A stretch of DNA of 64,000 nt. Origin: a virus. Location of the stretch: IMG/VR virus record IMGVR_UViG_3300009431_000004, one strand, 5' to 3'. Shown here one piece after another: positions 9,325-56,521 of the stretch (position 1 is its first letter; every line of letters begins with the position of its first letter). Below the pieces are notes generated by a model. It searched no databases. It saw only the letters and a program-made list of their open reading frames with translations, and had not been told where the DNA came from. The position numbers were made by a program, and so were the translations under genes.

Positions 9325-9609
9325 CTAATACTCCCCTTCAAACATCAAGTCCCTGCGGCATTCCTGCCACAGTCGTATTGCAGACTCCGAACTGAAAGTA
9401 GCGTGGTTCACGCTGGTCGCCAGCGAGTCGATGGATGCGGTGAGCCTCTCGTTGCGCGACCGACACGATTTCAACAGCTCCTCACAGACGTTTGCCCGAA
9501 CCCCCGTGGTCAACAGTTGGTCGGTCCGCCCGTCCTCGTACCCGAGCCACCTACCGAGGGCGACTCCTACCAGCAGGGCCAGCAGTGCTATGAGTATGGT
9601 CCTGCTCAC
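9325..9609 (-). CDS. small membrane-anchored protein
   Basis: N-terminal hydrophobic helix followed by a coiled region. Confidence 0.55.
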   Translation of the reverse strand: MSRTILIALLALLVGVALGRWLGYEDGRTDQLLTTGVRANVCEELLKSCRSRNERLTASIDSLATSVNHATFSSESAIRLWQECRRDLMFEGEY

Positions 9610-11576
9610 AGCCCCGCCAGTGTCTTTGCCTCGTCCTCGCTGATGACCTTGGTGCCGTACTGGCGGGCCTTCACGGCCTTGCCGGACTGGCTGTTCGGGT
9701 CAGCCGCGATGAGGTAGGTCAGGGTCTTGGAGACGCTGGACTTCTCGGTCGCGCCCTGCTTCTCCAAGGCTTCGCTCAGGTCCGCGTTGCGGAAGCCGGT
9801 CAGGCAAAAGGTCTGCCCGACAAGCGGCCCGGTCGCGGTCTGCACCGTGATTTTCGCCTCGCTGACCAGCTTGGCGATGAGGCCCAACCGGGCGAGGTAT
9901 CCGTCCACGAAGCTCTGGGCCTTGGTCTGGCCGACTCCGGGGATTTTCGCCACGTCCGCGACATACGCCTGTGACATCAGGTGGAGGCTGGTGTATCTGC
10001 CGTCCACAATCATCTTCGCCATGCTCCGCCCGATGAGCGGGATGCCGAGCGCACCCACGAATACGTGGATGGGCAGGGTCTTCTTCTTGTTCAGGTTCGT
10101 GATGGCCTTCACCGCGCTGCCCCCGGCCCGACGACCGTTGATGTCCACGTCCGCCGCCTTGTCCGGGTCCAGCAGGTAGAGGTCCGCGATGTCCGACACC
10201 ATGCCAGCCGCGATGAGGGCTTCGATGAGGGTGTCTCCGACGTGGAGGACACCGATTTTCTTGACCCACCGCTTGATGGCTCCGGCGACTTGCGCGGGGC
10301 AGTCGTCACCCCGGCACACGAGGTACTCACCGTCGCGCACCAGCGGGGTCTGACACTCCGGGCAAACGTCCGGCGGCTTGAACTCGACCGGGCTGCCCGA
10401 GGCCGGTTTCACGATGCTCTCGACGTAGGGAATCACGTCGTTGCGCCGCGCCACGAGGATGGTGTCCCCGTCGCAGGGGTAGGTGCCGATGCCTCCGGCG
10501 TCCCGGACCAGCGACTCCATGTTGCTGATGTTGTGCAGGGACGCCTGTTTCACCTTCGCCATGGCGAACTGCACCATGTCGAATTCCGCGACCGGGGTGA
10601 TTCGCCCGGAGTTGCCGACCTGCCACCGGATGTTGCGGAGGATGGTGGTCAGTTCCTCATGCGGGAACTTGTAGGCGATGGCTCCCTTGGGCCTGTGGTT
10701 CTTCTCCCCGAGGGCATCCCGCTTCAAGGTCGAGTCGGCCTCGACGACGAGGCCGTCGATGGCGTAGTCGAGGGAATCGCGGATGGTGTCCACGTAGTCC
10801 TTGTAGAGGGCTTTCACGCCGCTCTCGGTGGTCAGCACTTGCCAGCGCGGGGTCTGGAACCCCATCCCTTCCAGTCCCTCCATTTCGGCACTCTTGGACG
10901 CCATGCCGCGTCCGCCGGGGAGCAACTGGTAGGACTTGATGGTCAGGAACCGGCACTTGTCCGCGCCGGACTGCCTCTTGCTCGTCCCGGCTGCGGTGTT
11001 GCGGGGGTTGGACTCTCCGACGAAGTGGGCCGCGAAGTCCGACTTGAGGCAGACGACCTCGCCACGCACGAACACGAGGTCCGGGGTGGAGGTGCCGTCC
11101 GGCATCTTCGGCGGGAGCATCTTGACTGCGCCCTTCATCAGGAGGACGTTGCGGGTGATGTCCTCACCTTCCGTGCCGTCCCCACGGGTGAGTCCCTGTA
11201 CCAGCTTGCGCCCCTTGTACTGAAGGCTCAGGCTGATACCGTCCAGCTTGTCCGTGACCATGATGTCGTCGCCGGGCTTGAAGCCGCAGGACTTGAACCA
11301 GTCACCGAGTTCGTCTTCCACGCCGGACTCGTCGTGTTGGGCCTTGTTCAAGGAACCCATGGGGATTTGGTGCTTGACCTTGGGCCACGCGCCACCCGAA
11401 GGAGCCGCGCCGATGTGCGCGAGGGCCGCATGGTTCGGGTCGAGCTTGCGAAGCTCGTCTTCGAGCGCGTCGTACTCGGCGTCCGTGATGACCAATTCGT
11501 CGGACTGGTTGTAATAGGTACGCTTGGCCGCTTCAATTTTGTCGGCCAGTTTCTTGATTGCTTGGGTCTTGTTCAT
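9606..11576 (-). CDS. ligA: NAD+-dependent DNA ligase
   Basis: KLDG adenylation motif, VRGEV, IDGLVV, AIAYKF, OB fold, C4 Zn finger, HhH repeats, C-terminal BRCT (TFCLTG). Confidence 0.96.
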   Translation of the reverse strand: MNKTQAIKKLADKIEAAKRTYYNQSDELVITDAEYDALEDELRKLDPNHAALAHIGAAPSGGAWPKVKHQIPMGSLNKAQHDESGVEDELGDWFKSCGFKPGDDIMVTDKLDGISLSLQYKGRKLVQGLTRGDGTEGEDITRNVLLMKGAVKMLPPKMPDGTSTPDLVFVRGEVVCLKSDFAAHFVGESNPRNTAAGTSKRQSGADKCRFLTIKSYQLLPGGRGMASKSAEMEGLEGMGFQTPRWQVLTTESGVKALYKDYVDTIRDSLDYAIDGLVVEADSTLKRDALGEKNHRPKGAIAYKFPHEELTTILRNIRWQVGNSGRITPVAEFDMVQFAMAKVKQASLHNISNMESLVRDAGGIGTYPCDGDTILVARRNDVIPYVESIVKPASGSPVEFKPPDVCPECQTPLVRDGEYLVCRGDDCPAQVAGAIKRWVKKIGVLHVGDTLIEALIAAGMVSDIADLYLLDPDKAADVDINGRRAGGSAVKAITNLNKKKTLPIHVFVGALGIPLIGRSMAKMIVDGRYTSLHLMSQAYVADVAKIPGVGQTKAQSFVDGYLARLGLIAKLVSEAKITVQTATGPLVGQTFCLTGFRNADLSEALEKQGATEKSSVSKTLTYLIAADPNSQSGKAVKARQYGTKVISEDEAKTLAGL

Positions 11577-12151: not shown

Positions 12152-12249
12152 CAACTCGCGGATTTCAGTCCTAAGCCCCTCTTTCCTTTAGTAGTGGCCG
12201 CGCATCCCAAGATTCTGGGAGGGGGCTTAGGACCGCGCCGAGCGAGTAG
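12152..12249. promoter_or_regulatory. Back-to-back pair of recurrent promoters (12152-12180 minus; 12221-12249 plus)
   Basis: GGGGCTTAG-N13-GAGTTG leftward and GGGGGCTTAG-N13-GAGTAG rightward, between divergent genes. Confidence 0.7.
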
Positions 12250-12277
12250 AGACAGCAGGACACGAAGGAGACGTGAC

Positions 12278-13675
12278 ATGGACGAGCGTATGAACATCAT
12301 CTGCCAGCAGGCAGCCACCTGTGGTGCTTGCGGCAAGACCATTCACAAGGACGAGGATGCGGTCTGGATTCGTATGTCGGCCAAGACGACCGAGAGGCCG
12401 GGCATCTACCACCCCCACTGCACTTCGGCCCCCGACGCGACCCCGCACATCCCCGTGAAGGAGACGAAGGTACTCACGGCGATGGCGGACGCCTTCGACA
12501 AGCCGGAAGTCAAGGCTCACGCGACGGCGCTGCAAGAGGCCGTCACCAAGCTGTGGGAGGAGGGGCATGTGCGGTTGTCCATCGGGGTCAACGGCGACCA
12601 GCACAAGACGCATCCCGATGGGGTCAGCTTCGGCTTCTACACATGGTCGAAGCACGGCTACTTCGAGAACGGCCTCGGCCACGAAATGCCCACCCGCGAC
12701 AGCCTCGCCCATGCGTGGCAGCTCGTCGAAGACATGCTTCCGAGTTGCAGGTGGAAGCACAAGCCCCCGTCCCCCGTATCGTTCCTCCGGGGGAAGCTGG
12801 CCGAACACACCAAGGCACTCGTGGAGGCGATTCAGCCCCTTGTCAAAGGCACGGCCTACCGGGTGGTCGTCTGCATCACCTCCGAGGACCTTCACAGGGC
12901 TTTCGGGGTCCAAGTATTCGGGATGTCCATGACGAACCACTACCCGGACGCGGGGCGGGTCTTGGGAGAGGCCGTCCGTAACCATCTGCGGAGCATGGAA
13001 GACAGTGCTGTCCTAGCGCAACGGGCCGAAAGGGACCGGGCGCAGTACCAGCAACGGGAGGCTGAGGCCAGACGGGACCGGGAGACGGTGGAGAAGTTCA
13101 TCGCCGCGCTCCGTCCCGGCGACCTCTGGAAGCTCGACAAGGGGCTTCTCGGCATCATCGTCGGTCCGGGGTGCGGTGGCGTCCGCGTGCTGAAGCTCGA
13201 CGGCGACATCCAGCACATCGCCATCAAGGCCAACAAGCTGCCCTACGACCGCATCATCAAGGTGCCGGACTTCATCCGGTCGCACATCGTGGAACTGGCC
13301 CCGAAACTGGCCGAAGCCGGAGCCAAGAACAAGCTGTTCCAAGCCCTCAAGGCCGCCCGGAAGGGCGTCGAAGTCATCGTCGGCCCGTACATCTTCTCGG
13401 TCCGCAAGGCCAATGACCTCGACACGATACGACCGAGGGGTGACGTATTCACCATCTTCGGGGAAGCTCACGAACAGGTTGTCCAGCGCAACCTGCGTGA
13501 AATCATGCGTGACCTCGGATGCGACGGGTACTACGACCCCTACATCCGCGCCTTCAGCCACGGGATAGGGCCGGGACCGGCCCCCAAGGAAGGCAACGGC
13601 GGGACTTCCGTCGAGGGTCTGCTGGACTTCCTGCCCGAGAGCATCAGGAAGCACATCAAGCGCATGGGCCTTTGA
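12278..13675 (+). CDS. hypothetical protein with N-terminal CxxC-x26-HxxC (PARP-type-like) zinc finger
   Basis: AAGGAG RBS before the ATG at 12278; TCGACGKTIHK...YHPHC. Confidence 0.65.
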   Translation: MDERMNIICQQAATCGACGKTIHKDEDAVWIRMSAKTTERPGIYHPHCTSAPDATPHIPVKETKVLTAMADAFDKPEVKAHATALQEAVTKLWEEGHVRLSIGVNGDQHKTHPDGVSFGFYTWSKHGYFENGLGHEMPTRDSLAHAWQLVEDMLPSCRWKHKPPSPVSFLRGKLAEHTKALVEAIQPLVKGTAYRVVVCITSEDLHRAFGVQVFGMSMTNHYPDAGRVLGEAVRNHLRSMEDSAVLAQRAERDRAQYQQREAEARRDRETVEKFIAALRPGDLWKLDKGLLGIIVGPGCGGVRVLKLDGDIQHIAIKANKLPYDRIIKVPDFIRSHIVELAPKLAEAGAKNKLFQALKAARKGVEVIVGPYIFSVRKANDLDTIRPRGDVFTIFGEAHEQVVQRNLREIMRDLGCDGYYDPYIRAFSHGIGPGPAPKEGNGGTSVEGLLDFLPESIRKHIKRMGL

Positions 13676-13704
13676 GGGGGCTTAGGAGCGGCTCAATAGA
13701 GTAG
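13676..13704 (+). promoter_or_regulatory. Recurrent phage promoter upstream of PARP
   Basis: GGGGGCTTAG-N13-GAGTAG. Confidence 0.7.
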
Positions 13705-13732
13705 AGGATACAGGCGTAGGAGGAATCACCCG

Positions 13733-15373
13733 ATGGCCACGAAACTCGGACGAAAAGAGATGCCTGCCGGACTCTCGGCGGATGACTTCAAGTACATGGG
13801 ACGCCCCGCGAACGACCAAGGCGACTTCGGCTCGGACGTGGGCATCGCGGACATGGGCTGCGTCAACCAGTTCGGTGAAGCGAACAACGCCAAGTATTAC
13901 CACGCTGGCGTGGTACAGGGCAGCGGTCGCTGGTTCGTCTACCTCGAATGGGGCCGCATGAAGGCCGCGAAGTCGTGGAACGGCGGGTTCGGCGGCGGTG
14001 ACTTCCAGTTCGTCGAATGCACCGGAGAGGGCGACGCCCGTGACTTCTTCGCCAAGCAGTGCGGCAGCAAGAACGTCAAGCGGCTCATCCAGCAGACCAT
14101 CGCCGGGAAGCTCATCTGGACGGCCAAGAAGGGCAAGGACGGATACCTCGTCCAGCGCCTCGCCACCCGTGAGAAGGGTCTGCCGGATGCCTATACCATC
14201 AAGGACGACTCGGGTGTCACCAAGACGGCGGCTCCCAAGGCCGCCCCCAAGGCGAAGAAAGCGGCCAAGCCCTCGCGCACCTTCCAGCCCGAGGTCGCGT
14301 CGCTGGCCGCAGCCCTCGTGGGCGGGACCAAGACCTACGCCCGGTCGCTCTCGGCGGCTTCGGGCATCACCCCGACCATGGACACCATCAACGAGGTTCG
14401 GGACGACATCATCCCGGCGGCTCTGGACCGCATCAAGACGGTCGGCAATGACGTTCACCGTCAGGTCGAGGACGGCGACCTCATCGCCCTGTCGAAGCTG
14501 GTCGCGGCCCTCGTCCCCCGGCCCATCCCTCGGGGCGGGCAGGACGCCACGGAGGCCATCCTGAGCGCCAACAACATCCTCGTCCTTCAGCAGGACTTGG
14601 ATGCCTTTGAGGCCGCGTTGGGCAACGAGGACTTCTCCACCGCCACGAAGGCTCCCGACGTGGACCCGGACAGCCTGCTCAACGCGAAGCTGACGTGGCT
14701 CGACCCTCGCGGCGATGCCGCGTGGCTGGCGTCGGCGTTCACACAGATGTCCAACAACCGTCACGGATACCTCGGACGTGGGTCCGCCCGTGTGAAGCAC
14801 ATCTTCATGGTGGAGCGGCCCGACCGGGACGCCCCGTTCATGGCCAAGGTCGCGGCGGTCGGCTCCAAGCGCAAGGGCCGGTTCGGCCTCAAGGCGAACC
14901 TTCAGCCCCGGCGCAAGGACTTGAACGCGCAGGAGGCCGACCTGTTCGCACAGGCCAACGTCATCATGGCCATCCACGGCACGCGCCCGGTCAACATCGC
15001 CCCCATCTTGGGCGACAACTTCCGGCTCCCCCGGAGCCTCCCCGGAGCGCAAATCACCGGAGCCAACTTCGGTCACGGCGTCTACTTCGCAACCGACTGG
15101 CGCAAGTCCTACGGCTACACGGGCCGGGGCTACTACGGCGGCGGGGGCGGAGTGGCCAACCGGGGCTGCTTCATGTTCCTCTGCGACATGGTGATGGGCA
15201 ATGCCTACCGCGCTCCCTCGACCGGCTCGTGGGGTTCCCCTCCGGGCGACACGGACAGCGTGTTCGGCGTGGGCGGCGACAGAGGCCACCGGCTCGAAAA
15301 TGACGAGCATGTCATCTTCGACCCCCACTACCAGCGCATCCGCTACATCATCGAGTTCGACTGGCTGAACTAG
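13733..15373 (+). CDS. Poly(ADP-ribose) polymerase-like protein (WGR + helical regulatory + ART catalytic domains)
   Basis: KYY...EWGR (WGR); LSKLVAALVPR helical domain; IHGTRPVN, GANFGHGVYFA..KSYGY, FLCDMVMG, NDEHVIFD...RYIIEF with an intact H-Y-E triad. Confidence 0.9.
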   Translation: MATKLGRKEMPAGLSADDFKYMGRPANDQGDFGSDVGIADMGCVNQFGEANNAKYYHAGVVQGSGRWFVYLEWGRMKAAKSWNGGFGGGDFQFVECTGEGDARDFFAKQCGSKNVKRLIQQTIAGKLIWTAKKGKDGYLVQRLATREKGLPDAYTIKDDSGVTKTAAPKAAPKAKKAAKPSRTFQPEVASLAAALVGGTKTYARSLSAASGITPTMDTINEVRDDIIPAALDRIKTVGNDVHRQVEDGDLIALSKLVAALVPRPIPRGGQDATEAILSANNILVLQQDLDAFEAALGNEDFSTATKAPDVDPDSLLNAKLTWLDPRGDAAWLASAFTQMSNNRHGYLGRGSARVKHIFMVERPDRDAPFMAKVAAVGSKRKGRFGLKANLQPRRKDLNAQEADLFAQANVIMAIHGTRPVNIAPILGDNFRLPRSLPGAQITGANFGHGVYFATDWRKSYGYTGRGYYGGGGGVANRGCFMFLCDMVMGNAYRAPSTGSWGSPPGDTDSVFGVGGDRGHRLENDEHVIFDPHYQRIRYIIEFDWLN

Positions 15374-15397
15374 GTCGGTCAGAGGGTAGAGTGACCC

Positions 15398-16345
15398 ATG
15401 CACGGCGAACTGGTAGTGATGGGAGGTTCCTCGTACCCGGCGTTCACCCGAGCCGTGTGCCATCTCCTCGGAATCCCCGCCGAAATGATGACCGTCAAGA
15501 GGTTCGTCAACGACAACCTGATGGTTCAGGCCGAGAACAACGTCCGGGGCAAGGATGTCTTCTACATCCAGACCTCGTGTCCGCCCGTGAACGACCACAT
15601 CATGGAAATGATGCTGACCATTGACGCGCTGCGTTACGCCTCGGCGGAGCGAATCACGGCGGTCATCCCCTACTTCCCCTACGTGCGGTCGGACAAGAAG
15701 GACAAGCCCCGAATCAGCATCGCCGCCCGGCTCATTGCCGACATGCTACAGACGGCAGGAGCGGACCGGGTGCTGACCATGGACCTGCACTCGGCCCAAA
15801 TCGAGGGGTTCTTCCACATCCCCGTGGACCACCTGAGAGCCATCAACGCCCTGACCACGGCCCTGTCCGTGGAGGACCTGACGGACTACGTGGTCGTGGC
15901 CAGCGACATCGGGGAGGCCAAGGAAGCGGCCCCCTTCGCCAACAAGCTGGACCTCCCCATCGCCGTCATCGACAAGCGGCGCACGGGGGAAGACGACGAC
16001 AGGTCTTACGTGAGTTCCATGGTGGGCGACATCGTGGGGAAGCACTGTCTCCTCATCGACGACGAGACGGCCACCGCCGAGACGCTCTGCAATGCAGCCC
16101 ACTTCCTCATGGAACACGAGGCGGCATCGGTCGAGGCAGTCGTTACGCACCCGGTCTTGGAAGGGGAGGCCGTGGAGCGGCTCGAAATGTCCCCCATCCG
16201 CCGGGTCTTGGTCGCGGATACAATCCCGACCATGAAGAAGCAGAGCCGGGGCAGCAAGCTCCATCTGGTCACAGTGACCGAAGTGTTCGCGGACGCCATC
16301 CAGCGCATTCACAGCGAGGCCCCTCTCAGCCCGCTGTTCGATTAG
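15398..16345 (+). CDS. prs: Ribose-phosphate pyrophosphokinase (PRPP synthetase family)
   Basis: NVRGKDV, PYFPYVRSDK, TMDLHSAQIEGFF, IDKRR, LIDDETAT, THPV motifs. Confidence 0.92.
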   Translation: MHGELVVMGGSSYPAFTRAVCHLLGIPAEMMTVKRFVNDNLMVQAENNVRGKDVFYIQTSCPPVNDHIMEMMLTIDALRYASAERITAVIPYFPYVRSDKKDKPRISIAARLIADMLQTAGADRVLTMDLHSAQIEGFFHIPVDHLRAINALTTALSVEDLTDYVVVASDIGEAKEAAPFANKLDLPIAVIDKRRTGEDDDRSYVSSMVGDIVGKHCLLIDDETATAETLCNAAHFLMEHEAASVEAVVTHPVLEGEAVERLEMSPIRRVLVADTIPTMKKQSRGSKLHLVTVTEVFADAIQRIHSEAPLSPLFD

Positions 16346-16356
16346 GAGGTCCCGAC

Positions 16357-16899
16357 ATGGACACCATTTTTCTTGTTGCATGTGCGTTGACGATTCTGGG
16401 CGGTCTGGTGGGCCTGACCACGGTGGGCTGGTCGGTCCGCAAGGACACCGCCGTTACCGGGACATACCTCGTCCCGGTCTACAAGTGGGCGTCCGTCCGG
16501 CACATCATCACCGGGGGCCTCCTGACTGCTCAGTTCATGACCGGGATTCTGGGGGCGGTCGCTGCGTTCGTGCATGGGGGTCCGATGCCCATTGCGGCCT
16601 ACATCTGCGTCCTGAGCATGATTGCTGTAGGGACGCTTGGCTCCATCGCTCTCAACTACCTGTGGAACAGGCACGACGCCGGGTGGGTTCCGCTCATCGT
16701 GACCGCGACGGCCAATATGTACTGCACGGCCTGTGGTCAGCGGATAAACACCAGTCGGAAGCTCGGAGGCTGGTGCGCGTCGTGCGGAGCCGGACCCGAC
16801 GAGGAGTGTGACCCCAAGAAGCACCTGCGGCGCGAGAAATCCGGGGATGACAGGCCCGCCCGGACGCGCAACAAGGGTGCGAAGCGGAGGCGGAAGTGA
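16357..16899 (+). CDS. membrane protein with C-terminal Zn-ribbon motifs
   Basis: About 3 TM helices followed by CxxC...CxxC. Confidence 0.6.
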   Translation: MDTIFLVACALTILGGLVGLTTVGWSVRKDTAVTGTYLVPVYKWASVRHIITGGLLTAQFMTGILGAVAAFVHGGPMPIAAYICVLSMIAVGTLGSIALNYLWNRHDAGWVPLIVTATANMYCTACGQRINTSRKLGGWCASCGAGPDEECDPKKHLRREKSGDDRPARTRNKGAKRRRK

Positions 16900-17393
16900 T
16901 GCTGGCAATCTTGGCCATGACCGCCTCGGACTGGGGTCTTCTCGCAGGAGTGCTGGTGGGCCTCGTGGTGGGGGCTTTCTTCGTGGTGCCCCGGATACCG
17001 GGGCTGCGGCGTAAGGACCACCGGACACGGGGGCTTTGTGGCCGACCGACCATTCAGGTCAACGGGCAGCCCGTCCCCGATGACGCCTTCGACTTCGACC
17101 CGGAAACCGGCGAGGTAGTGTTCGACCGGGCGAAGTTCGCGTTCCCCGCGACCCCCAACCAGATACAAATCCAGTACGCCTACGAAGGAGCGCCCTGCCT
17201 GAACACGCTCCGGGCGGCGAGGGCGACGGGCGGACACCCTGCTTCGGGACGGTTCTGCCCGTGGTGCGGCGTGGACAAGGACAATGCGACGCCCTGCGCT
17301 CGGGATGTCTCACACGGCACCACCGAGGTCGCCTACTGCCACATCTGCGGAGCCGGGCCGGGGGACTCTTGCGACGCGGGGTTGCACTCATGA
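16896..17393 (+). CDS. membrane-anchored protein with Zn-ribbon motifs
   Basis: N-terminal TM segment; FCPWCG and YCHICG. Confidence 0.55.
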   Translation: MMLAILAMTASDWGLLAGVLVGLVVGAFFVVPRIPGLRRKDHRTRGLCGRPTIQVNGQPVPDDAFDFDPETGEVVFDRAKFAFPATPNQIQIQYAYEGAPCLNTLRAARATGGHPASGRFCPWCGVDKDNATPCARDVSHGTTEVAYCHICGAGPGDSCDAGLHS

Positions 17394-17827
17394 ACATCTT
17401 TCAAGGTCTTCTTCTGGCAGCTCAGGTGGTCGCCTTCTTCGGGGCGTTTGCGATGGTCGTGGCGACTGTCCTTTCGGCTATGGACAAGGGCTACCAGCCG
17501 GGTGGGGAGGACGCGGGAGTGGGACTCACCCACATCACCGGGGGCGGAGCTGTTCTGATTTTCGGTGCCGCCGCCCTGTTCGCCCAAGCCCACATCATCG
17601 ACGGCAAAGGGGTGACAGAGGCCAGCATCTTTCTGGCCCTGTGGGGCAGCCTGACGATTGCCTTCGCAGTGGCCTACAACGCCCGGTTCGAGACGTACTT
17701 GATAGGCTTGACGTTAGGCACTCCGGCCATCCGCCGCCCCGTGGGCTTCTGGACCCTCGTGCTTCTGGCCATGGGCGTCGTGTCCTGCGTCAATGGAATC
17801 GTGGGGGGCTTAGGTCTGGCCCAATAG
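17390..17827 (+). CDS. 4-TM membrane protein
   Basis: ATGA overlap with the upstream gene; four hydrophobic segments. Confidence 0.6.
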   Translation: MNIFQGLLLAAQVVAFFGAFAMVVATVLSAMDKGYQPGGEDAGVGLTHITGGGAVLIFGAAALFAQAHIIDGKGVTEASIFLALWGSLTIAFAVAYNARFETYLIGLTLGTPAIRRPVGFWTLVLLAMGVVSCVNGIVGGLGLAQ

Positions 17828-17832
17828 AGTAG
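17804..17832 (+). promoter_or_regulatory. Recurrent phage promoter
   Basis: GGGGGCTTAG-N13-GAGTAG. Confidence 0.7.
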
Positions 17833-17895: not shown

Positions 17896-18705
17896 ATGAC
17901 CATCCCAATCAACGACCCTTCCAATGGTGCCAAGCTCACGGGACACGCCGACTGGCGGACGGCAGTCAACGCGCTGCTCGACTACTGGACGGCCAACCTG
18001 CGCTGCTTCTCGTCCGGCGAGGTCGCCGCGACGCTGAGGGAGCATCGCCCGGACCTGCGCTTTTCCGTCCTGTCGGTCGGGGAACACATCCGCGACCTGT
18101 TCTACGCGCAGACCCTCCCGCAGTACCCCGGCCCCGTGGACGCCGTGATGGTGCCTCGCGTGACCGAGGGCCTGTTCCCGAACCGGACCCCGGCGGGCAT
18201 CGAGGTCTTCGTGTACGGGCCGGAGCAGCAGGAATGCCTCGACCACGACTTCGAGGTCTTCATCCCGCACCCCGGCGAGTCCCAGACGGACGCCCCGCCC
18301 GTGTCGCAGGGCCAGACCGCCATGGCCAACGCCGACAAGACCGGCCAGACCTTGACCGCCGTGGCCATCCTCGGCGCGAAGGTCGCCAGCCTCGACATCC
18401 GGGCCAAGGTCCACACGGACCTGCGCCTGTGCGTCCCGCGCTCCGCCTTCGAGCTGGCCGTCCACCTTGGCGGCACGCCGATGAGCGGCGGCGACCCCGT
18501 GTGGGTCAAGCAGGACGGCGACAACATGGTCATCGTGACCACGGACCCCAACGACCCGTCCTACGAGAGCTACAGCCTCGTGTCGAGTCGTGGCCGGGTC
18601 ATCTTCCCGTCCCCCGATGCCACCGCCCCCTTCGCCGCCGGAGACGCCTACAGCGTGTCCGTGAAGCCGGGTGAGCTGCGGGTGGACATCTCGCAACCCG
18701 TCTGA
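17896..18705 (+). CDS. hypothetical protein
   Basis: GAGGAG RBS; strong GC3 bias. Confidence 0.75.
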   Translation: MTIPINDPSNGAKLTGHADWRTAVNALLDYWTANLRCFSSGEVAATLREHRPDLRFSVLSVGEHIRDLFYAQTLPQYPGPVDAVMVPRVTEGLFPNRTPAGIEVFVYGPEQQECLDHDFEVFIPHPGESQTDAPPVSQGQTAMANADKTGQTLTAVAILGAKVASLDIRAKVHTDLRLCVPRSAFELAVHLGGTPMSGGDPVWVKQDGDNMVIVTTDPNDPSYESYSLVSSRGRVIFPSPDATAPFAAGDAYSVSVKPGELRVDISQPV

Positions 18706-40099: not shown

Positions 40100-40531
40100 T
40101 CACGGCGTTCCTTCAAGTGGGTTCGGGAGGGCCACTACAGAAAGCCAGTAGTGGTGCAGTTCCTTCAGCACTTCCTTCATGGCCTCGAAGGTGACGGGCT
40201 TGAGGACATACGAGTTGGCCCCCTTCGAGTAGGCCGAGAATATGTCGGCCTCGGTCCGGGAGGTCGTCATTATCACCACGGGGATGTGGCGGAGCCGCTT
40301 CGAGGCGCGGATGGCTTGCAGGGCTTCGCTCCCATCCATCCGGGGCATCTTGAGGTCCAACATGACAAGGGAGGGCGTGGGTTTCGTGTCGTCTTCGAGA
40401 CGCGCCAGTAGCTCCTCCCCGTCCTCGACCCGTTCCACGGAACACTGGTCTTCACACTCCTTGAGGGTGTCTTCGACTAGAATCCAGTCCTCGTTGTCGT
40501 CTTCTGCAAAAATCAACAGGGGTACGGCCAT
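40100..40531 (-). CDS. Single-domain response regulator (Rcp1-like)
   Basis: AEDD, LDLKMPRMDG, MTTS, GANSYVLKP. Confidence 0.93.
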   Translation of the reverse strand: MAVPLLIFAEDDNEDWILVEDTLKECEDQCSVERVEDGEELLARLEDDTKPTPSLVMLDLKMPRMDGSEALQAIRASKRLRHIPVVIMTTSRTEADIFSAYSKGANSYVLKPVTFEAMKEVLKELHHYWLSVVALPNPLEGTP

Positions 40532-42187
40532 CTAGTTCTCCGCAGGTCGCAATGGGATTGTCACAGTGAAGGTCGCCCCTTTTCCGGGTTCCCCCTTAGC
40601 AGAAATATAACCTCCGTAGTGGGAAATAATCCTGCGGCACAGCGCCAGCCCGATTCCGGTCCCCGGATAGGCAAACCGAGTATGCAACCTCGTGAAAACA
40701 CTGAATATTTTGTCCGCGAACTTCTGGTCGAACCCGATGCCGTTGTCTGCCACGGTCACGAATGCAAGGTCCTCCTCGACAGTGCCGTCGATGCGGACGA
40801 CGGGAAGGACATCGGGTTTCCTGAATTTGATGGCGTTCGAGAGAAGATTCTGGAACAGGATGCGGAACTGCGCCGAATGACCCCGGACCGTTGGGAGGTC
40901 CCCAACGATGACCTCGGCCTTGGCCTCGTCGAGGACCAGCTCCAAGTCGGTCAGCACTTCGGCCACGACGACGTTGAGGTCCACGTCCATGAAGGGGACC
41001 TGTTCCCCGCCGCCCGCCTTGGAGTAGCTCAGGAGGTCGTCGATGAGCTTGGTCATCCGCGTGGACGCGCTCTGCATAACTTCGAGGCACTCTTGCACTT
41101 TGGGTTCGGCCTCCTCGCGCAGCAGTCCTGCTAGTCTGTTGCCGAAATTGGTGATTTTGTTCAGAGGCTCCCGCAAATCATGGGAGGCCGCGTAGGCAAA
41201 GGACTGAAGTGCCTCGTTCGATACTTCGAGCTGGTGGGTTCGATTCAGGACCATGCCTTCGAGACGGGACATGACTTCCTTGGCCCGCGTGATGTCCCGG
41301 ATGACCACCAGAACCTCATCCGGGCCGGACGGGCTGAACCGGGCCTCGAAGGTGTACCCCGGCACCTTCGGGAGACGGTACTCCCATTCTTGGATGATCC
41401 CCGTGTCCAGAGCCTTCCCGATGCACTTCATCGCGTTGGCTGCGAACTCCGGCGGGAAGACCTCTTGGACGTTCTTCCCGAGGTACTGGGATGGCCGCAT
41501 GGCCACCGGCACAGCGCCGGGGTGACTGTCGATGAACACCCCCTCGCGGCAGATGAGATGCAGCATGTCCGGGGTCGCCTCCAAGAAGGCTCGGTAGCGA
41601 CCTTCAAGGGTCTGGGTCTGTTTCTCGTGCGTGTCGTGGAGAAAGTCCTCCATACGGTGTCGCTGGATGGAGGCCCCAAAGAGTCCGCTCAGGAGGTGGA
41701 CAATCCACAGGTCCGCATCGGAGTAATCTTTCGGCTTGTTAGCCACTGCGAGTTGGCCCACCAGCTCGTCCCCGATGAGTGCAGGTGCGCCAAGGAAGTT
41801 GGTGAGTTGGATGTGGCCCTCTGGGGCACCCTTCGAGGCCGGGTGGGAAGCCGGGTCATTCGTGAAGAAGGCCAGCTTGGTTGTCATGGCATGGCCCCAC
41901 AACTTCGGGTAGGTGCCGTCGGGAAGAGGCGGGAACACGATGCGCTCCTCCTCGGGCTGAAGTTGGCACTCCTTTCCCATCATGTCCGTCAAGGAGTAGC
42001 AGACGAGTTCCTTCGTCACGGGGTCCACGGCACCAGCGAAGGCATGGAGGCTCCCGGTCAACTGCCGGGCGCAGTCGGTGGCAGTCCTCGACAGGGATTC
42101 GAGGGAGACGTTGTTCTTGATGAGTTCCTTGGCCACCTCTGCGACGGCAGAGAGGACCTCGACCGGGTTGTCTAGCCTGTGGAGCAT
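40532..42187 (-). CDS. Cytoplasmic GAF-PAS sensor histidine kinase
   Basis: H-box ASHDLREPL, N-box NLLSNAIKF, DNGIG, GTGIGL; N-terminal GAF and PAS. Confidence 0.94.
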   Translation of the reverse strand: MLHRLDNPVEVLSAVAEVAKELIKNNVSLESLSRTATDCARQLTGSLHAFAGAVDPVTKELVCYSLTDMMGKECQLQPEEERIVFPPLPDGTYPKLWGHAMTTKLAFFTNDPASHPASKGAPEGHIQLTNFLGAPALIGDELVGQLAVANKPKDYSDADLWIVHLLSGLFGASIQRHRMEDFLHDTHEKQTQTLEGRYRAFLEATPDMLHLICREGVFIDSHPGAVPVAMRPSQYLGKNVQEVFPPEFAANAMKCIGKALDTGIIQEWEYRLPKVPGYTFEARFSPSGPDEVLVVIRDITRAKEVMSRLEGMVLNRTHQLEVSNEALQSFAYAASHDLREPLNKITNFGNRLAGLLREEAEPKVQECLEVMQSASTRMTKLIDDLLSYSKAGGGEQVPFMDVDLNVVVAEVLTDLELVLDEAKAEVIVGDLPTVRGHSAQFRILFQNLLSNAIKFRKPDVLPVVRIDGTVEEDLAFVTVADNGIGFDQKFADKIFSVFTRLHTRFAYPGTGIGLALCRRIISHYGGYISAKGEPGKGATFTVTIPLRPAEN

Positions 42188-42969
42188 GACGGTTCTATTC
42201 CCCCACCCCCCAGCCTCAGCAGGGTCGTGGCCTTCAGGGCTTCAACCGTTGCCGGGTCGAGGGAGTTGATGAGGATGACCGCAAGGACCGCAATCGTTAC
42301 CAGACAGAGGAAGATGACAATGGCCACAATCGGATTCGATTTTATCCAGTCGAGCAACCACCTGAATCGAGAAATGTCACGGACTTCGGAGAGGACGGCA
42401 TCCCGCATCGACCTGATGTCTGCCCGTATCGCCGCGCTCTGCTCGGTGCTGGCCGCCCGCGATGCCTTCAGCTCCTCGGTCGCGTGTGTCTGGGCGATGA
42501 CCGACTCTCTCGTGAGGCTCACCAGAGTCTCGATGTTCACGCCGACGCCCGGCCCGCTGCCGTTACGGGTCTGCTTCTCGTACAGCCCGATGGCGTAGAT
42601 GCAGGTGCGTTCCAGAATCTCGGTGTTGAAGGTGCCTTTTTCGAGGTACTCGGCAGCCCCAGCTTCGATGGCGCGGGCTTGCAGGCTACGGTCCCCGTGG
42701 CTCGTGATGATGACCACTGGAATCTTGAAATACAGCTCCTCGTAGATGCGTTTCAGGAAGGACAGGCCGTCGAGGTCAGGGAGCTTGTAGTCCAGCAGGA
42801 CTACATCGAACTTGGACTCTTCCAGCTTCGTCAGACCGGCGTCCGCTGTCTCCGCCTTCTCGACCGCGAACTTCGCCCGTTTGCCTTCCCCGAGCAGGTC
42901 GGAGACGAGCTTGGCATCCTCCCGGTCATCGTCGATGATGAGGACACGGACGCTGGTTGCAGGAGGCAT
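42172..42969 (-). CDS. Receiver domain fused to coiled coil and C-terminal TM helix
   Basis: IIDDD, LLDYKLPDLDG, ITS, YLEK; C-terminal PIVAIVIFLCLVTIAVLAVILI. Confidence 0.85.
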   Translation of the reverse strand: MPPATSVRVLIIDDDREDAKLVSDLLGEGKRAKFAVEKAETADAGLTKLEESKFDVVLLDYKLPDLDGLSFLKRIYEELYFKIPVVIITSHGDRSLQARAIEAGAAEYLEKGTFNTEILERTCIYAIGLYEKQTRNGSGPGVGVNIETLVSLTRESVIAQTHATEELKASRAASTEQSAAIRADIRSMRDAVLSEVRDISRFRWLLDWIKSNPIVAIVIFLCLVTIAVLAVILINSLDPATVEALKATTLLRLGGGGIEPSCSTG

Positions 42970-44025: not shown

Positions 44026-44088
44026 GATGTCTACTCCCTGCAAGGCCAAAAGGCATGAAGCCACGCTCTCATCTATAGGGAGTATTTA

Positions 44089-52971: not shown

Positions 52972-53970
52972 TTATCCGTCGCCATTCTTGGGTTTGTCGA
53001 TGAACCAGCCGGTGTCCTCGGCGCGGGCGTCGCCACCGTCGAAGTCGAAGAACTCGTTGAGGACATCGGCCTGTGCGTCGGAGACGGCCTCGGGTTCGGG
53101 GGTGTCGTAGGAAACGGGGAACGCATCTTCCAGTTGCCCGTCCAGCTCTCGCAGGAAGTCGTGGCCCCAAGGACCGTTCTCCAACGAGTTGGTGAGCGAC
53201 TTGGGGAGATTGTTCTCGATGTCAGGGTGCAGGGAGGCAGCGGCCATTGCGATGCCTGCAACGCCGTCTACGTCGCCCGAGAAGGCGACCGCCGCCTTGA
53301 GGATGGTGGAGAGCTTGAAACCGCTCTGGATGGCTGTGAGGGCCGCCCTGACGGCACTTACGCCCTTGCCGTTGACATGACCCTGCCACGGAGTCTCCCA
53401 CGGGTATCCGGGCAGTTGCTCGGTCAGGAGCGGGGCGATGCAGTCGAGGTCGAAGCCGTGGCGGCACGCCCAGACCATGAGGGCGCTGGCCGCAGCAGAG
53501 GCCATGCCGTCCTTGGTCGCGTGGGTCAGGCTGGCTTGCCACATGGCCGTGTCGATGACTTCCTGCTCCCTCCCCAAGAAGCCGCAGACCACGGCCCTTT
53601 CCGCTGCCCCGGACTTGTCGCTGTGTGGTTCGATGAGCTTCAGGAACTCCTCGCCGCCTCTGTCAGGGTCAATCATGGTCAGGAACTCATGAAAGCCCTT
53701 GGCGTAGCCCACGCGAGGGTTGGCCTTGAATGTGTCCACGAGGCAGTCAGCCCACGCCAGAGGCGTCCGGGCTGCGTCGGACAGAAGCAAATGAGCCAGT
53801 GCAACCGCCATCTGCACGCCGTCGGTGTACTGGCCCGGCAGCAGCTCGGTATGGGACGGGTGCTGCCGGTACTTCAGGTCGTTGTTCAACTTCACGACAC
53901 CCGGAGCGACGTACTCGAAGCACGCCCCGTAGCTGTCCCCGAGGGCCATGGAAACCAGCATCCCCATCAT
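52972..53970 (-). CDS. ADP-ribosylglycohydrolase (ARH/DraG family)
   Basis: LGDSYGA.FE, YTDG.QM, QASLTH, FSGDVD..A.IA; the usual TDD is TDG here. Confidence 0.87.
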   Translation of the reverse strand: MMGMLVSMALGDSYGACFEYVAPGVVKLNNDLKYRQHPSHTELLPGQYTDGVQMAVALAHLLLSDAARTPLAWADCLVDTFKANPRVGYAKGFHEFLTMIDPDRGGEEFLKLIEPHSDKSGAAERAVVCGFLGREQEVIDTAMWQASLTHATKDGMASAAASALMVWACRHGFDLDCIAPLLTEQLPGYPWETPWQGHVNGKGVSAVRAALTAIQSGFKLSTILKAAVAFSGDVDGVAGIAMAAASLHPDIENNLPKSLTNSLENGPWGHDFLRELDGQLEDAFPVSYDTPEPEAVSDAQADVLNEFFDFDGGDARAEDTGWFIDKPKNGDG

Positions 53971-55302: not shown

Positions 55303-55331
55303 CTACTCGGTGGAGGCGGCTCTAAGCCCCC
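55303..55331 (-). promoter_or_regulatory. Recurrent phage promoter
   Basis: GGGGGCTTAG-N13-GAGTAG. Confidence 0.7.
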
Positions 55332-56521
55332 TACCGGAGCAGCGCAGTGAGAATCATGCCGGTGTTGGCCCAGTCCACGTTGTCCGGGCCGATGAGTTCC
55401 CGCACCGTGGTCATCTCGACGTAGGTCTTTTCGGTGTCTTCCGTGACCCCGTGGGTCTTGCCGGAGCCAACCTCGTCCCGGATGGTCTTCATCTCCTCGG
55501 CGGTCAGCTCGACCGTGAAGACGTGGCCGAAGTGGGAGGACAGGGTGCCGGTCACTTGACGGGCGTCCACGAACTTGAAGCGGTTGGCATCGACCTTGAG
55601 GCCCGTCTCTTCGTGCAGCTCCTCGGAGGCGACCACCAGCGCGTTTTCTCCGGGCTTCCACGAGGAGCCGCCGGGCAGCTCCCGGATGAACCCGTCGGGG
55701 GTCACTGCGGGCGACCGGAACTCGCGGACGAGGACGATGGGGGTGTCCATGAAGGCGTTGTGCGGCGCACATGCGTCGTCGTCTTCGGCACGGATGGGCT
55801 GATAGGCCACGATGGTCGAGATGTCCGGGCGGCCCAGCACGACCTCGTTGGTCTTGTGACGGTCCTCCTCCTTGATGTAGACATCGACGTGCAGCGCCCA
55901 GAAGAATACGAAGGTCTTTTCCGGCCCGACCCGGAAGGTCCAGACCACCTTGGCCCCTTCGAGCCTGTTCCCGGCCCCTTCCTGCGCCTTCAGCCACGCC
56001 TGAAAGCTCGGCGTGTTCCAGATGTAGAGGGGGACTTCGCGCTGGCCTCCGGCCCGGAGCGACCCGGCCCCGAGGGAGTTGACCACCCAGCCCAGCATCG
56101 AGGGCAGCGAGTGGAAGCTCGGGACTTTCTCCATGTCCGCGAGGTGCTGAAGGTAACGCATGGAGGGAGCATCTTCCGGGTAGCCGAGGACGCACTTGCC
56201 GGTCCCGTTCCACATCCCGAACTCGGTGTTGGTGGACAGGGCCGGGAGCTTCTCCTTGTCACGCGGAACCCAGAACACGATGAGGTCCGCCATGTTCAGG
56301 TGCTTGGCTTCCCAATCCACTTGGTCGGAGTACGTCTTGGGCCATTTCCCGTCACGCGGGATGGGGACGAAGACCACGCCGTCGTAGCCCAGTTCTTCCA
56401 GAATCTTGAGGGCTTCTGGCCGCCAGTTGGGATGGTCCTTGTCTCGCGGCGACGGCCCTGCGAGAAAGAGGCTCTTGGTCATGAATTCGGGGGCGTTCTC
56501 TTGCGAGTAAATGACGTGCAT
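55331..56521 (-). CDS. Nucleoside 2-deoxyribosyltransferase-like domain fused to an ADP-ribose pyrophosphatase-like Nudix domain
   Basis: SLFLAG..NWR, QVDWE, IVFWVPR, TNTEFG; VLVREFRSP, ELPGG..GE..VASEELHEETG. Confidence 0.83.
   Translation of the reverse strand: MHVIYSQENAPEFMTKSLFLAGPSPRDKDHPNWRPEALKILEELGYDGVVFVPIPRDGKWPKTYSDQVDWEAKHLNMADLIVFWVPRDKEKLPALSTNTEFGMWNGTGKCVLGYPEDAPSMRYLQHLADMEKVPSFHSLPSMLGWVVNSLGAGSLRAGGQREVPLYIWNTPSFQAWLKAQEGAGNRLEGAKVVWTFRVGPEKTFVFFWALHVDVYIKEEDRHKTNEVVLGRPDISTIVAYQPIRAEDDDACAPHNAFMDTPIVLVREFRSPAVTPDGFIRELPGGSSWKPGENALVVASEELHEETGLKVDANRFKFVDARQVTGTLSSHFGHVFTVELTAEEMKTIRDEVGSGKTHGVTEDTEKTYVEMTTVRELIGPDNVDWANTGMILTALLR

What the first reader, a model, noticed from the sequence alone, without database searches (positions are those of the whole stretch)
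13676..16345. Phage-encoded eukaryote-like PARP paired with a PRPP-synthetase-family enzyme: core of a viral ADP-ribose cycle
Seen: a 546-aa WGR + helical domain + ART protein with an intact H-Y-E triad (IHGT, GVYFA, NDEH), 24 bp upstream of a prs gene and behind the recurrent promoter. Established: WGR-helical-catalytic is the architecture of DNA-break-activated PARP2/3, and phage Prs homologues can be Adps enzymes that pyrophosphorylate ADP-ribose in the NARP1 NAD+ reconstitution pathway. The ribose-phosphate loop here is non-canonical (DDETATAET versus DDxxxTGGT). Inference: together with the ARH and Nudix genes at 53-56.5 kb, the phage encodes a writer, an eraser and recyclers (NAD+ -> ADP-ribosylation -> ADP-ribose -> ribose-5-P + AMP -> PRPP, or ADP-ribose -> ADPR-PP). 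This could serve DNA repair, host takeover or counter-defence. I am not aware of a characterised phage PARP-Prs module.
Basis: partly seen in the sequence, partly recalled or inferred. Interest (0 to 1): 0.9.

Follow-up and report, generated by a model that had tools for sequence, protein, structure and literature searches.

The report
Jumbo-phage PARP with an inserted prs gene
A huge phage carries a real relative of the human DNA-break sensor PARP. The PRPP-synthetase gene next to it is a bacterial-type metabolic gene found there only in this small lineage, and the PARP's constant companion is an unnamed, predicted DNA-binding protein 2.5 kb downstream.

Summary
ORF 13733-15373 (+) encodes a 546-aa WGR / helical domain / ART protein with an intact H415-Y451-E525 triad. 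It sits behind one of 14 copies of the phage's GGGCTTAG-N13-GAGTAG promoter motif. A 315-aa prs gene (15398-16345) follows after 24 bp.

I found 84 other distinct loci that encode this PARP family. Of the 48 with at least 3 kb of downstream sequence, only one (the closest relative) has prs. None of five near-complete related huge-phage genomes has any prs.

The Prs is a cellular-type class I enzyme:
- It is 53-57% identical to chromosomal Myxococcota/deltaproteobacterial Prs.
- Its best solved match is the Prs in PDB entries 7PN0/5T3O (E 3.5e-84).
- It passes NCBIfam's Prs cut-off, which a NARP1 Adps fails.
- The 64-kb window holds no Namat.
- Its ribose-5-phosphate loop is nevertheless unique among the 120 nearest homologues (Ala-Glu where all others keep at least one Gly).

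The conserved partner of the PARP is a 269-aa protein with no family (17896-18705), present downstream in 40 of those 48 loci. Its model shows a winged helix plus an AbrB/MraZ-like fold. An NAD-dependent ligase is often nearby.

Jumbo-phage PARPs are already noted in the literature. This scan found the same PARP-partner pairing before on another genome (e1-5319123).

The parts
9606..11576 (-). NAD+-dependent DNA ligase LigA with HhH and BRCT domains, on the strand opposite to the PARP gene and upstream of the PARP block
   Evidence: Pfam DNA_ligase_aden, OB, HHH_2 and BRCT. NCBIfam NF005932 scores 371 bits against a 369-bit cut-off. A LigA homologue lies within 10 kb of the PARP in 10 related loci, and in 6 of the 21 loci with at least 8 kb on both sides.
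13678..13704 (+). Recurrent phage promoter-like motif GGGCTTAG-N13-GAGTAG in front of the PARP gene
   Evidence: There are 14 exact GGGCTTAG boxes in the window, each followed 13 (once 14) nt later by GAGTAG or GAGTTG and facing a gene start, mostly an ATG 20-45 nt beyond the second box. The longer form GCTTAG-N7-13-TAGNGTA occurs 3 times against 0 expected by chance: before LigA, PARP and the 269-aa gene.
13733..15373 (+). PARP-family ADP-ribosyltransferase, 546 aa. Extended WGR domain (about residues 1-155), low-confidence Lys/Ala-rich linker (165-175), helical domain (about 186-300), ART domain (about 320-546) with H415, Y451, K458, S459, Y462 and E525
   Evidence: The family has at least 350 clusters at 90% identity and 66 representatives at 50% identity with E<=1e-30.
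15398..16345 (+). Class I ribose-phosphate diphosphokinase (Prs), 315 aa. It has no promoter motif of its own and lies 24 nt behind the PARP gene. The ribose-5-phosphate loop DDETATAET (221-229) lacks both glycines
16357..17827 (+). Three small tightly packed genes (16357-16899, 16899-17393, 17390-17827) with no family, two with weak zinc-ribbon signals. Together with prs they fill the gap between the PARP and its partner
   Evidence: Gene calls on the identical contig L020. An 11-nt gap follows prs. Only sub-threshold Pfam hits. The second gene has partial homologues behind the PARP in L005, L021, L039 and L043.
17806..17832 (+). Second copy of the promoter motif, nearly identical to the one before the PARP, in front of the partner gene
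   Evidence: GGCYCAATAGAGTAGAG occurs at 13690 and 17818 only (2 matches against 0.03 expected). Sequence shown.
17896..18705 (+). Conserved partner of the PARP family: 269-aa protein of no known family. N-terminal winged-helix-like domain (about 16-110), C-terminal AbrB/MazE/MraZ-like swapped-hairpin domain (about 165-269)
   Evidence: A homologue lies downstream on the same strand in 40 of 48 distinct PARP loci with at least 3 kb downstream, at a median of 615 bp. AF2 pLDDT 94.9. VIA-align Z 5-6.7 to Fur, linker-histone and cullin winged helices, and Z 5.6 to MraZ. Foldseek prob 0.77-0.95 to MraZ. Atlas MazE/MraZ TM 0.57-0.62. No Pfam, PHROG or NCBIfam hit. 133 relatives, all unnamed.
52972..53970 (-). 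ADP-ribosylglycohydrolase (ARH/DraG family), 38 kb from the PARP. Same genome, no positional link
   Evidence: Pfam PF03747, 67.9 bits. The ARH family is present in 4 of 5 related huge-phage genomes, but 17-235 kb from their PARP genes.
55331..56521 (-). Fusion of a nucleoside 2-deoxyribosyltransferase-like domain and a weak Nudix domain
   Evidence: Pfam PF15891 at 48.2 bits; NUDIX at 18.7 bits, below its 21.1-bit cut-off.

Best explanation
The stretch holds two co-transcribed genes of a huge phage.

Gene 1 is a bona fide clade-1-type PARP (WGR, autoinhibitory helical domain, ART with the full PARP1-like NAD+ site). It belongs to a large family that is nearly confined to huge-phage contigs. 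By analogy with PARP1/2 and the two assayed bacterial PARPs, its WGR domain should bind a DNA break or end. That binding should release the helical domain and switch on NAD+-dependent ADP-ribosylation of itself, of a DNA-bound protein or of DNA ends, during phage DNA replication and repair.

Its evolutionarily fixed companion is the 269-aa winged-helix + AbrB-like protein at 17896-18705, which carries a near-identical promoter copy. That protein is most likely the DNA-bound cofactor or the target. An NAD+-dependent ligase is a frequent third neighbour.

Gene 2 is a bacterial-type class I PRPP synthetase. It was inserted between the PARP and its partner in one small sublineage. It most likely acts as an auxiliary metabolic gene that raises PRPP for nucleotide and NAD+ salvage, and it is not a dedicated part of an ADP-ribose cycle.

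Shown: domain identities, catalytic residues, gene order, conservation statistics, promoter copies. Inferred: DNA-dependent activation, targets, and the role of Prs.
For: PARP identity:
- Pfam PARP.
- H-Y-E alignment to PARP4 and PARP2.
- H415, Y451, K458, Y462, E525 and E72-W73-G74-R75 are invariant in 33 family members.
- WGR passes the Pfam cut-off in two relatives.
- The model matches PARP1 WGR-CAT and PARP2 chains bound to DNA breaks.

Phage context:
- Relatives lie on IMG/VR contigs of 230-619 kb, two of them with terminal repeats.
- The window encodes an endolysin, a DNA methyltransferase and a topoisomerase.

Partner:
- 40 of 48 loci carry it, against 1 of 48 for Prs.
- The promoter copy is shared between the PARP and the partner gene.

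Prs is ordinary in kind:
- PDB 7PN0/5T3O Prs at E 3.5e-84, with the same RF-NDNL, SDKKD and DDE-x-S/A-T-A motifs.
- 53-57% identity to Prs on bacterial contigs of 1.2-10 Mb.
- NF002320 scores 341.7 bits against a 297-bit cut-off.
- K193, R195, D129, H131, D221 and D222 are conserved.

No dependence of the PARP on Prs: 0 of 5 related genomes have Prs.

Operon: gaps of 24 nt and 11 nt, and no promoter motif before prs.
Against: - No biochemical data exist for any phage PARP. DNA dependence and poly- versus mono-ADP-ribosylation cannot be read from sequence.
- Prs has 14 substitutions at columns that are at least 90% conserved in its relatives (the others have 0-10). These include G228E in the ribose-5-phosphate loop and GDS to EAP near the C-terminus. 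It may therefore not be a normal PRPP synthetase.
- PARP-prs adjacency is kept in two phages that differ by 30% in PARP and 38% in Prs. That argues for some selective value of the linkage in this lineage.
- The fold assignments for the partner rest on middling scores (Z 5-7).
- Only 64 kb of the genome could be searched for Nampt/Namat.
Confidence: 0.72

Rival explanations
1. PARP and Prs form a functional writer-recycler module. PARP consumes NAD+, ARH and Nudix release ADP-ribose or ribose 5-phosphate, and the Prs-family enzyme (possibly Adps-like) pyrophosphorylates it to rebuild NAD+.
For: The two genes share one transcription unit with a 24-nt gap. The adjacency is kept in the closest relative, L021. 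The ribose-5-phosphate loop is unique (Ala-Glu, no Gly) among 120 homologues, and the Adps family also lacks the second Gly (PMC13586617). ARH and a Nudix fusion are in the window. One relative (L044) has a Nampt-like gene 2 kb behind its PARP-partner pair.
Against: Prs is absent from 47 of 48 informative PARP loci and from 5 of 5 related near-complete genomes. No Namat is in the window, although 97% of Adps genes have one within ten genes. Identity is 29% to an Adps against 53-57% to cellular Prs. The protein passes the curated Prs model that the Adps fails. ARH and Nudix lie 38-41 kb away under their own promoters.
Confidence: 0.1
2. The PARP is a host-takeover or counter-defence effector rather than a phage DNA-repair factor. 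It would ADP-ribosylate host proteins as T4 Alt/Mod do, or mark phage DNA ends to block host nucleases. The partner would direct it to its target.
For: Iyer et al. proposed that jumbo-phage PARPs act like other phage ARTs on the host machinery (PMC7824862). The family sits among small unknown early-type genes behind the recurrent promoter. In one relative it lies directly after a phage-borne type I-E CRISPR-Cas operon.
Against: The complete WGR-HD regulatory module, which in known PARPs couples activity to DNA breaks, is strictly conserved. An NAD-dependent DNA ligase is a recurrent neighbour. The partner has two folds typical of DNA binding.
Confidence: 0.15
3. The prs copy is decaying or catalytically impaired: a recently captured host gene under relaxed selection whose position next to the PARP is accidental.
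For: It has the highest count of deviations at conserved columns in the set (14). These include a charged residue in place of the conserved loop glycine and loss of the C-terminal GDS motif. The related phage copy in L021 keeps both.
Against: The frame is intact. The same protein sequence is found on three contigs. All catalytic-loop and metal-site residues are kept. GC3 is 0.86, as in neighbouring genes.
Confidence: 0.1

Closest known systems
Human PARP1/PARP2 C-terminal module (WGR-HD-ART; PDB 7S6H, 4DQY, 6X0L)
   Same: Same three-domain order and fold (Foldseek E 4e-19 to 4e-17, TM by target 0.58-0.67). Same H-Y-E triad, and Lys-Ser and second Tyr that look equivalent to those of the PARP1 NAD+ site by my own reading of the motif, not by a tool alignment to PARP1. 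Invariant WGR motif.
   Different: Only 15-17% identity. No zinc fingers, no BRCT domain and no basic N-terminal tail. A conserved extra N-terminal extension of about 50 residues on the WGR. A glycine-rich loop after the second Tyr. Pfam PARP_reg is not detectable by sequence. Encoded by a phage.
Bacterial PARPs of Herpetosiphon aurantiacus and Clostridioides difficile CD160 (in vitro PARylation shown; HaPARP required DNA for activation)
   Same: WGR + helical + catalytic layout. In many of them the helical domain is also missed by Pfam (PMC5966428; PMC8120803).
   Different: The characterised bacterial PARPs were assayed together with their cognate PAR glycohydrolases. No PARG or macrodomain was detected next to this gene. 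The conserved neighbour here is the 269-aa winged-helix/AbrB-like protein instead. Most catalytic-domain-only hits in the library are proteins of about 400-470 aa, against about 550 aa in this family.
Jumbo-phage PARP/PART genes noted in comparative surveys (Iyer et al. 2021 and 2022; 'NAD-jumbo phages', Microbiome 2024)
   Same: A phage-encoded PARP1-like gene, often in genomes with an NAD-dependent ligase and NAD+ metabolism genes.
   Different: In the passages I read, those surveys give no conserved partner, no Prs link and no biochemistry. This family is mainly metagenomic: 1 full-length hit in 50,697 GenBank phage records.
Class I ribose-phosphate diphosphokinase, best solved match PDB 7PN0/5T3O (which I recall as Thermus thermophilus)
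   Same: E 3.5e-84 over the full length. Shared subfamily motifs RF-NDNL, SDKKD-PRIS and DDE-x-S/A-T-A. Above the NF002320 and TIGR01251 cut-offs.
   Different: Glu replaces the conserved second Gly of the ribose-5-phosphate loop. Fourteen deviations at conserved columns. Phage-encoded and co-transcribed with a PARP.
Adps, the ADP-ribose pyrophosphokinase of the phage NARP1 pathway
   Same: PRPS fold. Phage-encoded. Loss of the second loop glycine (SUSP2 Adps has Arg there, the structurally studied Adps has Ala).
   Different: 29% identity. No Namat partner. The loop is T-A-T-A-E-T, not C-D-x-A-A-S. The protein retains full-length Prs N- and C-terminal regions and the curated Prs score.

Membership tests
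Clade-1 (PARP1/2/3-like) PARPs | PARP catalytic (ART) domain above the family threshold | tested here: met
   PF00644 scores 49.3 bits against a 26.7-bit cut-off. Best PDB sequence hits are PARP4, PARP2 and PARP1.
Clade-1 (PARP1/2/3-like) PARPs | H-Y-E catalytic triad | tested here: met
   H415, Y451 and E525 align with the triad in the PARP4 alignment. All three are invariant in 33 relatives.
Clade-1 (PARP1/2/3-like) PARPs | WGR domain N-terminal to the catalytic region | tested here: met
   Pfam finds no WGR in this protein itself. PF05406 scores 26.9 and 27.9 bits (cut-off 22) in two relatives, 59% and 62% identical in alignment A1, at the same position. EWGR is invariant. The model aligns with PARP1 WGR-CAT chains over 556-598 columns.
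Clade-1 (PARP1/2/3-like) PARPs | Helical regulatory domain (PARP_reg) between WGR and ART | tested here: inconclusive
   No PF02877 hit at E<=10. The model has a helical bundle at 186-300 and aligns with PARP1 HD+ART chains (TM by target 0.61-0.68). It is present by fold but not shown by sequence.
Clade-1 (PARP1/2/3-like) PARPs | DNA-break-dependent (poly)ADP-ribosylation activity | not testable with these tools
   Needs an enzyme assay.
Adps (NARP1 ADP-ribose pyrophosphokinase) | Membership of the phage-specific Adps clade, separate from cellular Prs | tested here: not met
   No tree was built. By proxy: 29% identity over 231 residues to the SUSP2 Adps by tblastn (25% in alignment A3), against 53-57% to Prs on bacterial contigs of 1.2-10 Mb. 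NF002320 scores 341.7 bits (cut-off 297) for this protein and 104.6 bits for the Adps.
Adps (NARP1 ADP-ribose pyrophosphokinase) | Namat gene within ten genes (97% of Adps; bioRxiv 10.1101/2024.02.11.579819) | tested here: not met
   tblastn of the SUSP2 Namat against the whole 64-kb window gives a best E of 0.21. No NAPRTase-type Pfam hit among the neighbours scanned.
Adps (NARP1 ADP-ribose pyrophosphokinase) | Remodelled PP loop that binds the ATP donor (Cys215-Ser220 in the solved Adps) | tested here: inconclusive
   The loop here is T-A-T-A-E-T. It differs from both the Adps loop and the canonical Prs loop.
Adps (NARP1 ADP-ribose pyrophosphokinase) | Forms ADPR-PP from ADP-ribose + ATP and no PRPP | not testable with these tools
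   Needs an LC-MS assay.
Class I ribose-phosphate diphosphokinase (Prs) | Full-length match above curated family cut-offs | tested here: met
   NF002320 at 341.7 bits (cut-off 297) and TIGR01251 at 321.1 bits (cut-off 113). Pfam Pribosyltran_N, Pribosyltran and Pribosyl_synth.
Class I ribose-phosphate diphosphokinase (Prs) | Catalytic flexible-loop Lys/Arg and the DLH / DD metal and pyrophosphate sites | tested here: met
   K193, R195, D129, H131, D221 and D222 are invariant columns of alignment A3.
Class I ribose-phosphate diphosphokinase (Prs) | Ribose-5-phosphate loop ending T/S-[GAC]-G-T | tested here: not met
   Positions 7-8 of the loop in the query and its 119 nearest homologues: GG 93, AG 18, GR 7, GA 1. 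This protein alone has AE.

The most novel reading that the evidence does not exclude
The huge-phage PARP and its winged-helix/AbrB-like neighbour form a dedicated two-protein system for signalling DNA breaks or DNA ends. It would be an independent, non-eukaryotic solution analogous to PARP1/2 with HPF1 or with histone targets. In this lineage the co-transcribed Prs, with its glycine-less Ala-Glu loop, would have shifted to a non-standard acceptor derived from ADP-ribose turnover. That would make it a further functional type of PRPS-like enzyme beside Prs and Adps.
Probability: 0.12. Interest if true: 0.8.

Novelty: new member of a known kind. Interest (0 to 1): 0.42.

Why it matters
PARPs outside eukaryotes have almost no known biology. 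I found no enzymology for a phage PARP in the reviews and surveys I read, and only two bacterial ones have been assayed in vitro.

This work corrects an attractive but unsupported 'ADP-ribose cycle' reading. The prs gene is a lineage-specific insertion of a bacterial-type enzyme.

It also points to the testable handle: a strictly linked, unannotated, predicted DNA-binding protein that travels with the PARP in most of the related huge-phage loci surveyed. That pair, with the frequent NAD-dependent ligase, could show what a WGR-PARP does in a system without chromatin.

The odd Prs loop is a cheap biochemical question (ribose 5-phosphate versus ADP-ribose as acceptor), given the recent discovery of Adps.

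Tried and rejected
- **Complex prediction:** PARP (alignment A1) with the 269-aa partner (A2) returned 'no answer' (score 0.00, controls not run). It counts neither for nor against binding.
- **Pfam on PARP segments 1-200 and 180-400 at E<=10:** no WGR or PARP_reg hit.
- **Upstream ORF:** the 525-aa ORF upstream of the PARP is not homologous to the 522-aa ORF upstream of the LR756511 PARP. It has no homologue in other loci, so it is not part of the conserved set.
- **Whole genome:** none is held for the window. Nampt, Namat, NMNAT, macrodomain and PARG could only be sought in 64 kb.
- **Exact look-ups:** the PARP and its 99% twin are not on record. One look-up failed on the server.
- **PDB sequence searches** with the ARH and the deoxyribosyltransferase-Nudix fusion: no hits.
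- **Foldseek of the partner model** against PDB and BFVD: nothing at E<=0.001. Only C-terminal AbrB/MraZ-like matches and unnamed phage proteins.
- **Feature search in the ESM Atlas:** scores 0.77-0.78, below the useful range.
- **Prs/Adps tree:** not built, because only one Adps sequence was in hand. Identity, curated-model scores and the missing Namat were used instead.
- **Terminators:** none was found between the PARP and the partner gene beyond chance level.
- **ARH co-occurrence:** ARH is present in 4 of 5 related genomes. This was not taken as linkage, because no baseline in PARP-less huge phages was measured and the distances are 17-235 kb.


Full report
**Observation**

The window has about 62% G+C. 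It encodes an endolysin, a DNA methyltransferase, a topoisomerase and a thymidylate kinase. Relatives of the gene in question lie on IMG/VR viral contigs of 230-619 kb, two of them with terminal repeats. The setting is therefore a huge phage.

ORF 13733-15373 (+) gives a 546-aa protein. It matches the Pfam PARP catalytic domain at 49.3 bits, against a cut-off of 26.7. Its best solved relatives by sequence are PARP4, PARP2 and PARP1. IHGT, GVYFA and NDEH align on the H-Y-E triad in the PARP4 alignment.

ORF 15398-16345 (+) starts 24 nt after the PARP stop codon. It carries the Prs N-terminal, PRT and Prs-associated domains.

The 'recurrent promoter' is real. GGGCTTAG-N13-GAGTAG occurs at 13678-13704 and 13 more times in the window. 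Each copy faces a gene start, mostly an ATG 20-45 nt beyond the second box and usually behind a GGAGG-like site. There is no copy before prs. prs, the next three small genes and the PARP are packed with gaps of 24 nt, 11 nt and overlaps, so PARP and prs are one transcription unit.

**The PARP**

Pfam does not see WGR or PARP_reg in this protein. Three lines of evidence establish the architecture anyway.
- Two family members, 59% and 62% identical in alignment A1, pass the WGR cut-off at the homologous position.
- E72-W73-G74-R75, H415, Y451, K458, Y462 and E525 are invariant in a 33-sequence alignment.
- An AlphaFold2 model (pLDDT 80.7) aligns over its whole length with the WGR-catalytic chains of PARP1 and PARP2 bound to DNA breaks (E 4e-19 to 4e-17, TM by target 0.58-0.67). 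It also aligns with PARP1 HD+ART fragments.

The family is large and coherent. It has at least 350 clusters at 90% identity, nearly all about 550 aa, unnamed, and on contigs of up to 444 kb. It has 66 representatives at 50% identity with E<=1e-30. Only one full-length relative exists among 50,697 GenBank phage records, the 595-kb LR756511.

**Is PARP-Prs a module?**

I collected 100 loci around family members from viral and metagenome collections. I searched them with the window's proteins.

After removing duplicates and the second copy of this same phage (L020), 84 distinct loci remain, and 48 of them have at least 3 kb downstream of the PARP. Only one of these, L021 (PARP 70% identical, Prs 62%), has prs. 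There it lies after a 69-codon ORF.

Five related huge-phage records estimated 76-100% complete contain no Prs N-terminal domain at all. The same search hits all 14 control genomes. Conversely, several huge phages in GenBank have Prs without this PARP. In LR756511 the two genes are 10 kb apart.

The linkage is therefore confined to one small sublineage.

**What kind of Prs?**

The evidence places it among cellular class I enzymes.
- Its best solved match is the Prs in PDB entries 7PN0/5T3O (E 3.5e-84). I recall these as Thermus thermophilus; the tool gives no organism.
- Its nearest relatives are a small metagenomic cluster at 60-63% identity. Next come Prs annotated from Myxococcota, Deltaproteobacteria and KSB3 at 53-57%, on contigs of 1.2-10 Mb.
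- It exceeds the curated cut-offs of NF002320 and TIGR01251. The Adps of Escherichia phage SUSP2 (a prs-like gene followed by a nicotinate-phosphoribosyltransferase-like gene) fails NF002320 at 104.6 bits.

Osterman et al. define Adps by a separate phage clade and by a Namat gene within ten genes in 97% of cases. Here identity to the Adps is 29% and no Namat-like sequence exists anywhere in the 64-kb window.

One real peculiarity remains. In the set of the query and its 119 nearest homologues, positions 7-8 of the ribose-5-phosphate loop read GG (93), AG (18), GR (7) or GA (1). This protein alone has AE. It also carries 14 deviations at columns that are at least 90% conserved, the most in the set. 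The L021 copy keeps the glycine. The Adps family also lacks that glycine, so an altered acceptor cannot be excluded. Nothing else points that way.

**The conserved partner**

The window protein at 17896-18705 (269 aa) has a homologue downstream on the same strand in 40 of the 48 informative loci. The median distance from the PARP stop is 615 bp, and 32 of 50 lie within 1 kb. In the window, prs and three small genes lie between the two.

Its upstream region repeats the PARP's promoter region almost letter for letter over about 30 nt.

It has no Pfam, PHROG or NCBIfam match. A profile search finds 133 relatives, all unnamed.

A model built from 37 homologues has pLDDT 94.9. Residues 16-110 resemble winged-helix domains (Fur family, linker histone, cullin WH-B; Z 5-6.7). 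Residues 165-269 resemble MraZ/MazE/AbrB swapped-hairpin domains. These scores are middling and show fold, not function. Both folds are typical DNA binders.

A LigA homologue lies within 10 kb in 6 of the 21 loci with at least 8 kb on both sides. In the window it lies on the opposite strand, upstream of the PARP block, under the same promoter type.

**ARH, Nudix and NAD+ salvage**

The ARH, an HD-domain protein and a deoxyribosyltransferase-like/Nudix fusion at 53-56.5 kb are real. They lie 38-41 kb away under their own promoters. ARH occurs in 4 of 5 related genomes, at 17-235 kb from the PARP. Nampt-like genes occur in 2 of 5, and once 2 kb behind the PARP-partner pair (L044). Without a baseline this shows only that such phages are rich in NAD+/ADP-ribose genes, which is already published.

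**Comparison with what is known**

WGR-helical-catalytic PARPs are known in bacteria. Two of them make poly(ADP-ribose) in vitro, and the Herpetosiphon enzyme was shown to need DNA for activation. PARP genes in phages were listed in 2014. They were noted in jumbo phages in 2021-2024, including a proposed DNA-repair role together with an NAD-dependent ligase.

The gene is therefore a new member of a known kind. The PARP-Prs 'module' is not a conserved entity. The PARP-partner pairing was not mentioned in the papers I could read. It was found independently by an earlier follow-up of this scan on a 322-kb phage (finding e1-5319123), whose contig is among my loci (L009/L056).

**Verdict**

- The most likely mechanism is break- or end-activated ADP-ribosylation by a phage PARP working with a DNA-binding partner and near an NAD+ ligase. 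A bacterial-type Prs rides in the same operon as a metabolic helper in this lineage only.
- Interest is moderate. It rests on the uncharacterised partner and the odd Prs loop, not on an ADP-ribose cycle.

Noticed in passing
window 42979-44064 (-), with 40100-42969 (-): A second protein with a weak WGR match (21.1 bits, cut-off 22) heads an operon with two receiver-domain proteins and a GAF-PAS histidine kinase. This would be a WGR domain outside any PARP, in a phage two-component system.
   Followed up: partly
alignment A1, columns about 590-630 (family members P0023, P0026, P0029, P0035, P0082, P0087): Six of 33 PARP-family members carry a Cys-rich insert of 30-40 residues (CxxC ... CxC, zinc-ribbon-like) inside the ART domain, just before the strand that bears the catalytic Glu. 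The window's protein lacks it.
   Followed up: no
L005/L074 5366-6451 and 7334-8122: In the 436-kb relative, the LigA homologue upstream of the PARP is split into two tblastn pieces about 880 bp apart. This suggests an intein, intron or homing-endonuclease insertion.
   Followed up: no
L002/L003 1-5864: On a 444-kb contig a type I-E CRISPR-Cas effector operon (Cas3, Cse1, Cse2, Cas7, Cas5, Cas6e) ends about 2 kb upstream of the PARP homologue.
   Followed up: no
L044 13701-14915: A Nampt/Namat-like gene (31-39% identity to the SUSP2 Namat) lies 2 kb behind the PARP-partner pair in one relative. It is the only NAD+-salvage gene found close to a family member.
   Followed up: no
window 50302-51852 (-): A 516-aa protein with a WLM (Wss1/SprT-like metalloprotease) domain, E 2.7e-16. 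This is a family known for DNA-protein crosslink repair, which is notable in a genome with a PARP.
   Followed up: no
window 54616-55281 (-): A standalone HD_4 domain protein of the RelA/SpoT hydrolase type sits between the ARH and the deoxyribosyltransferase-Nudix fusion. It is a possible (p)ppGpp or nucleotide-signal hydrolase.
   Followed up: no
window 12223-12284 (+) and 12178-12120 (-): Back-to-back promoter motifs indicate that the true starts of the 525-aa ORF and of the 168-aa minus-strand ORF are the ATGs near 12284 and 12120, not the long TTG-initiated forms. The apparent overlap of the two ORFs is then an artefact.
   Followed up: partly
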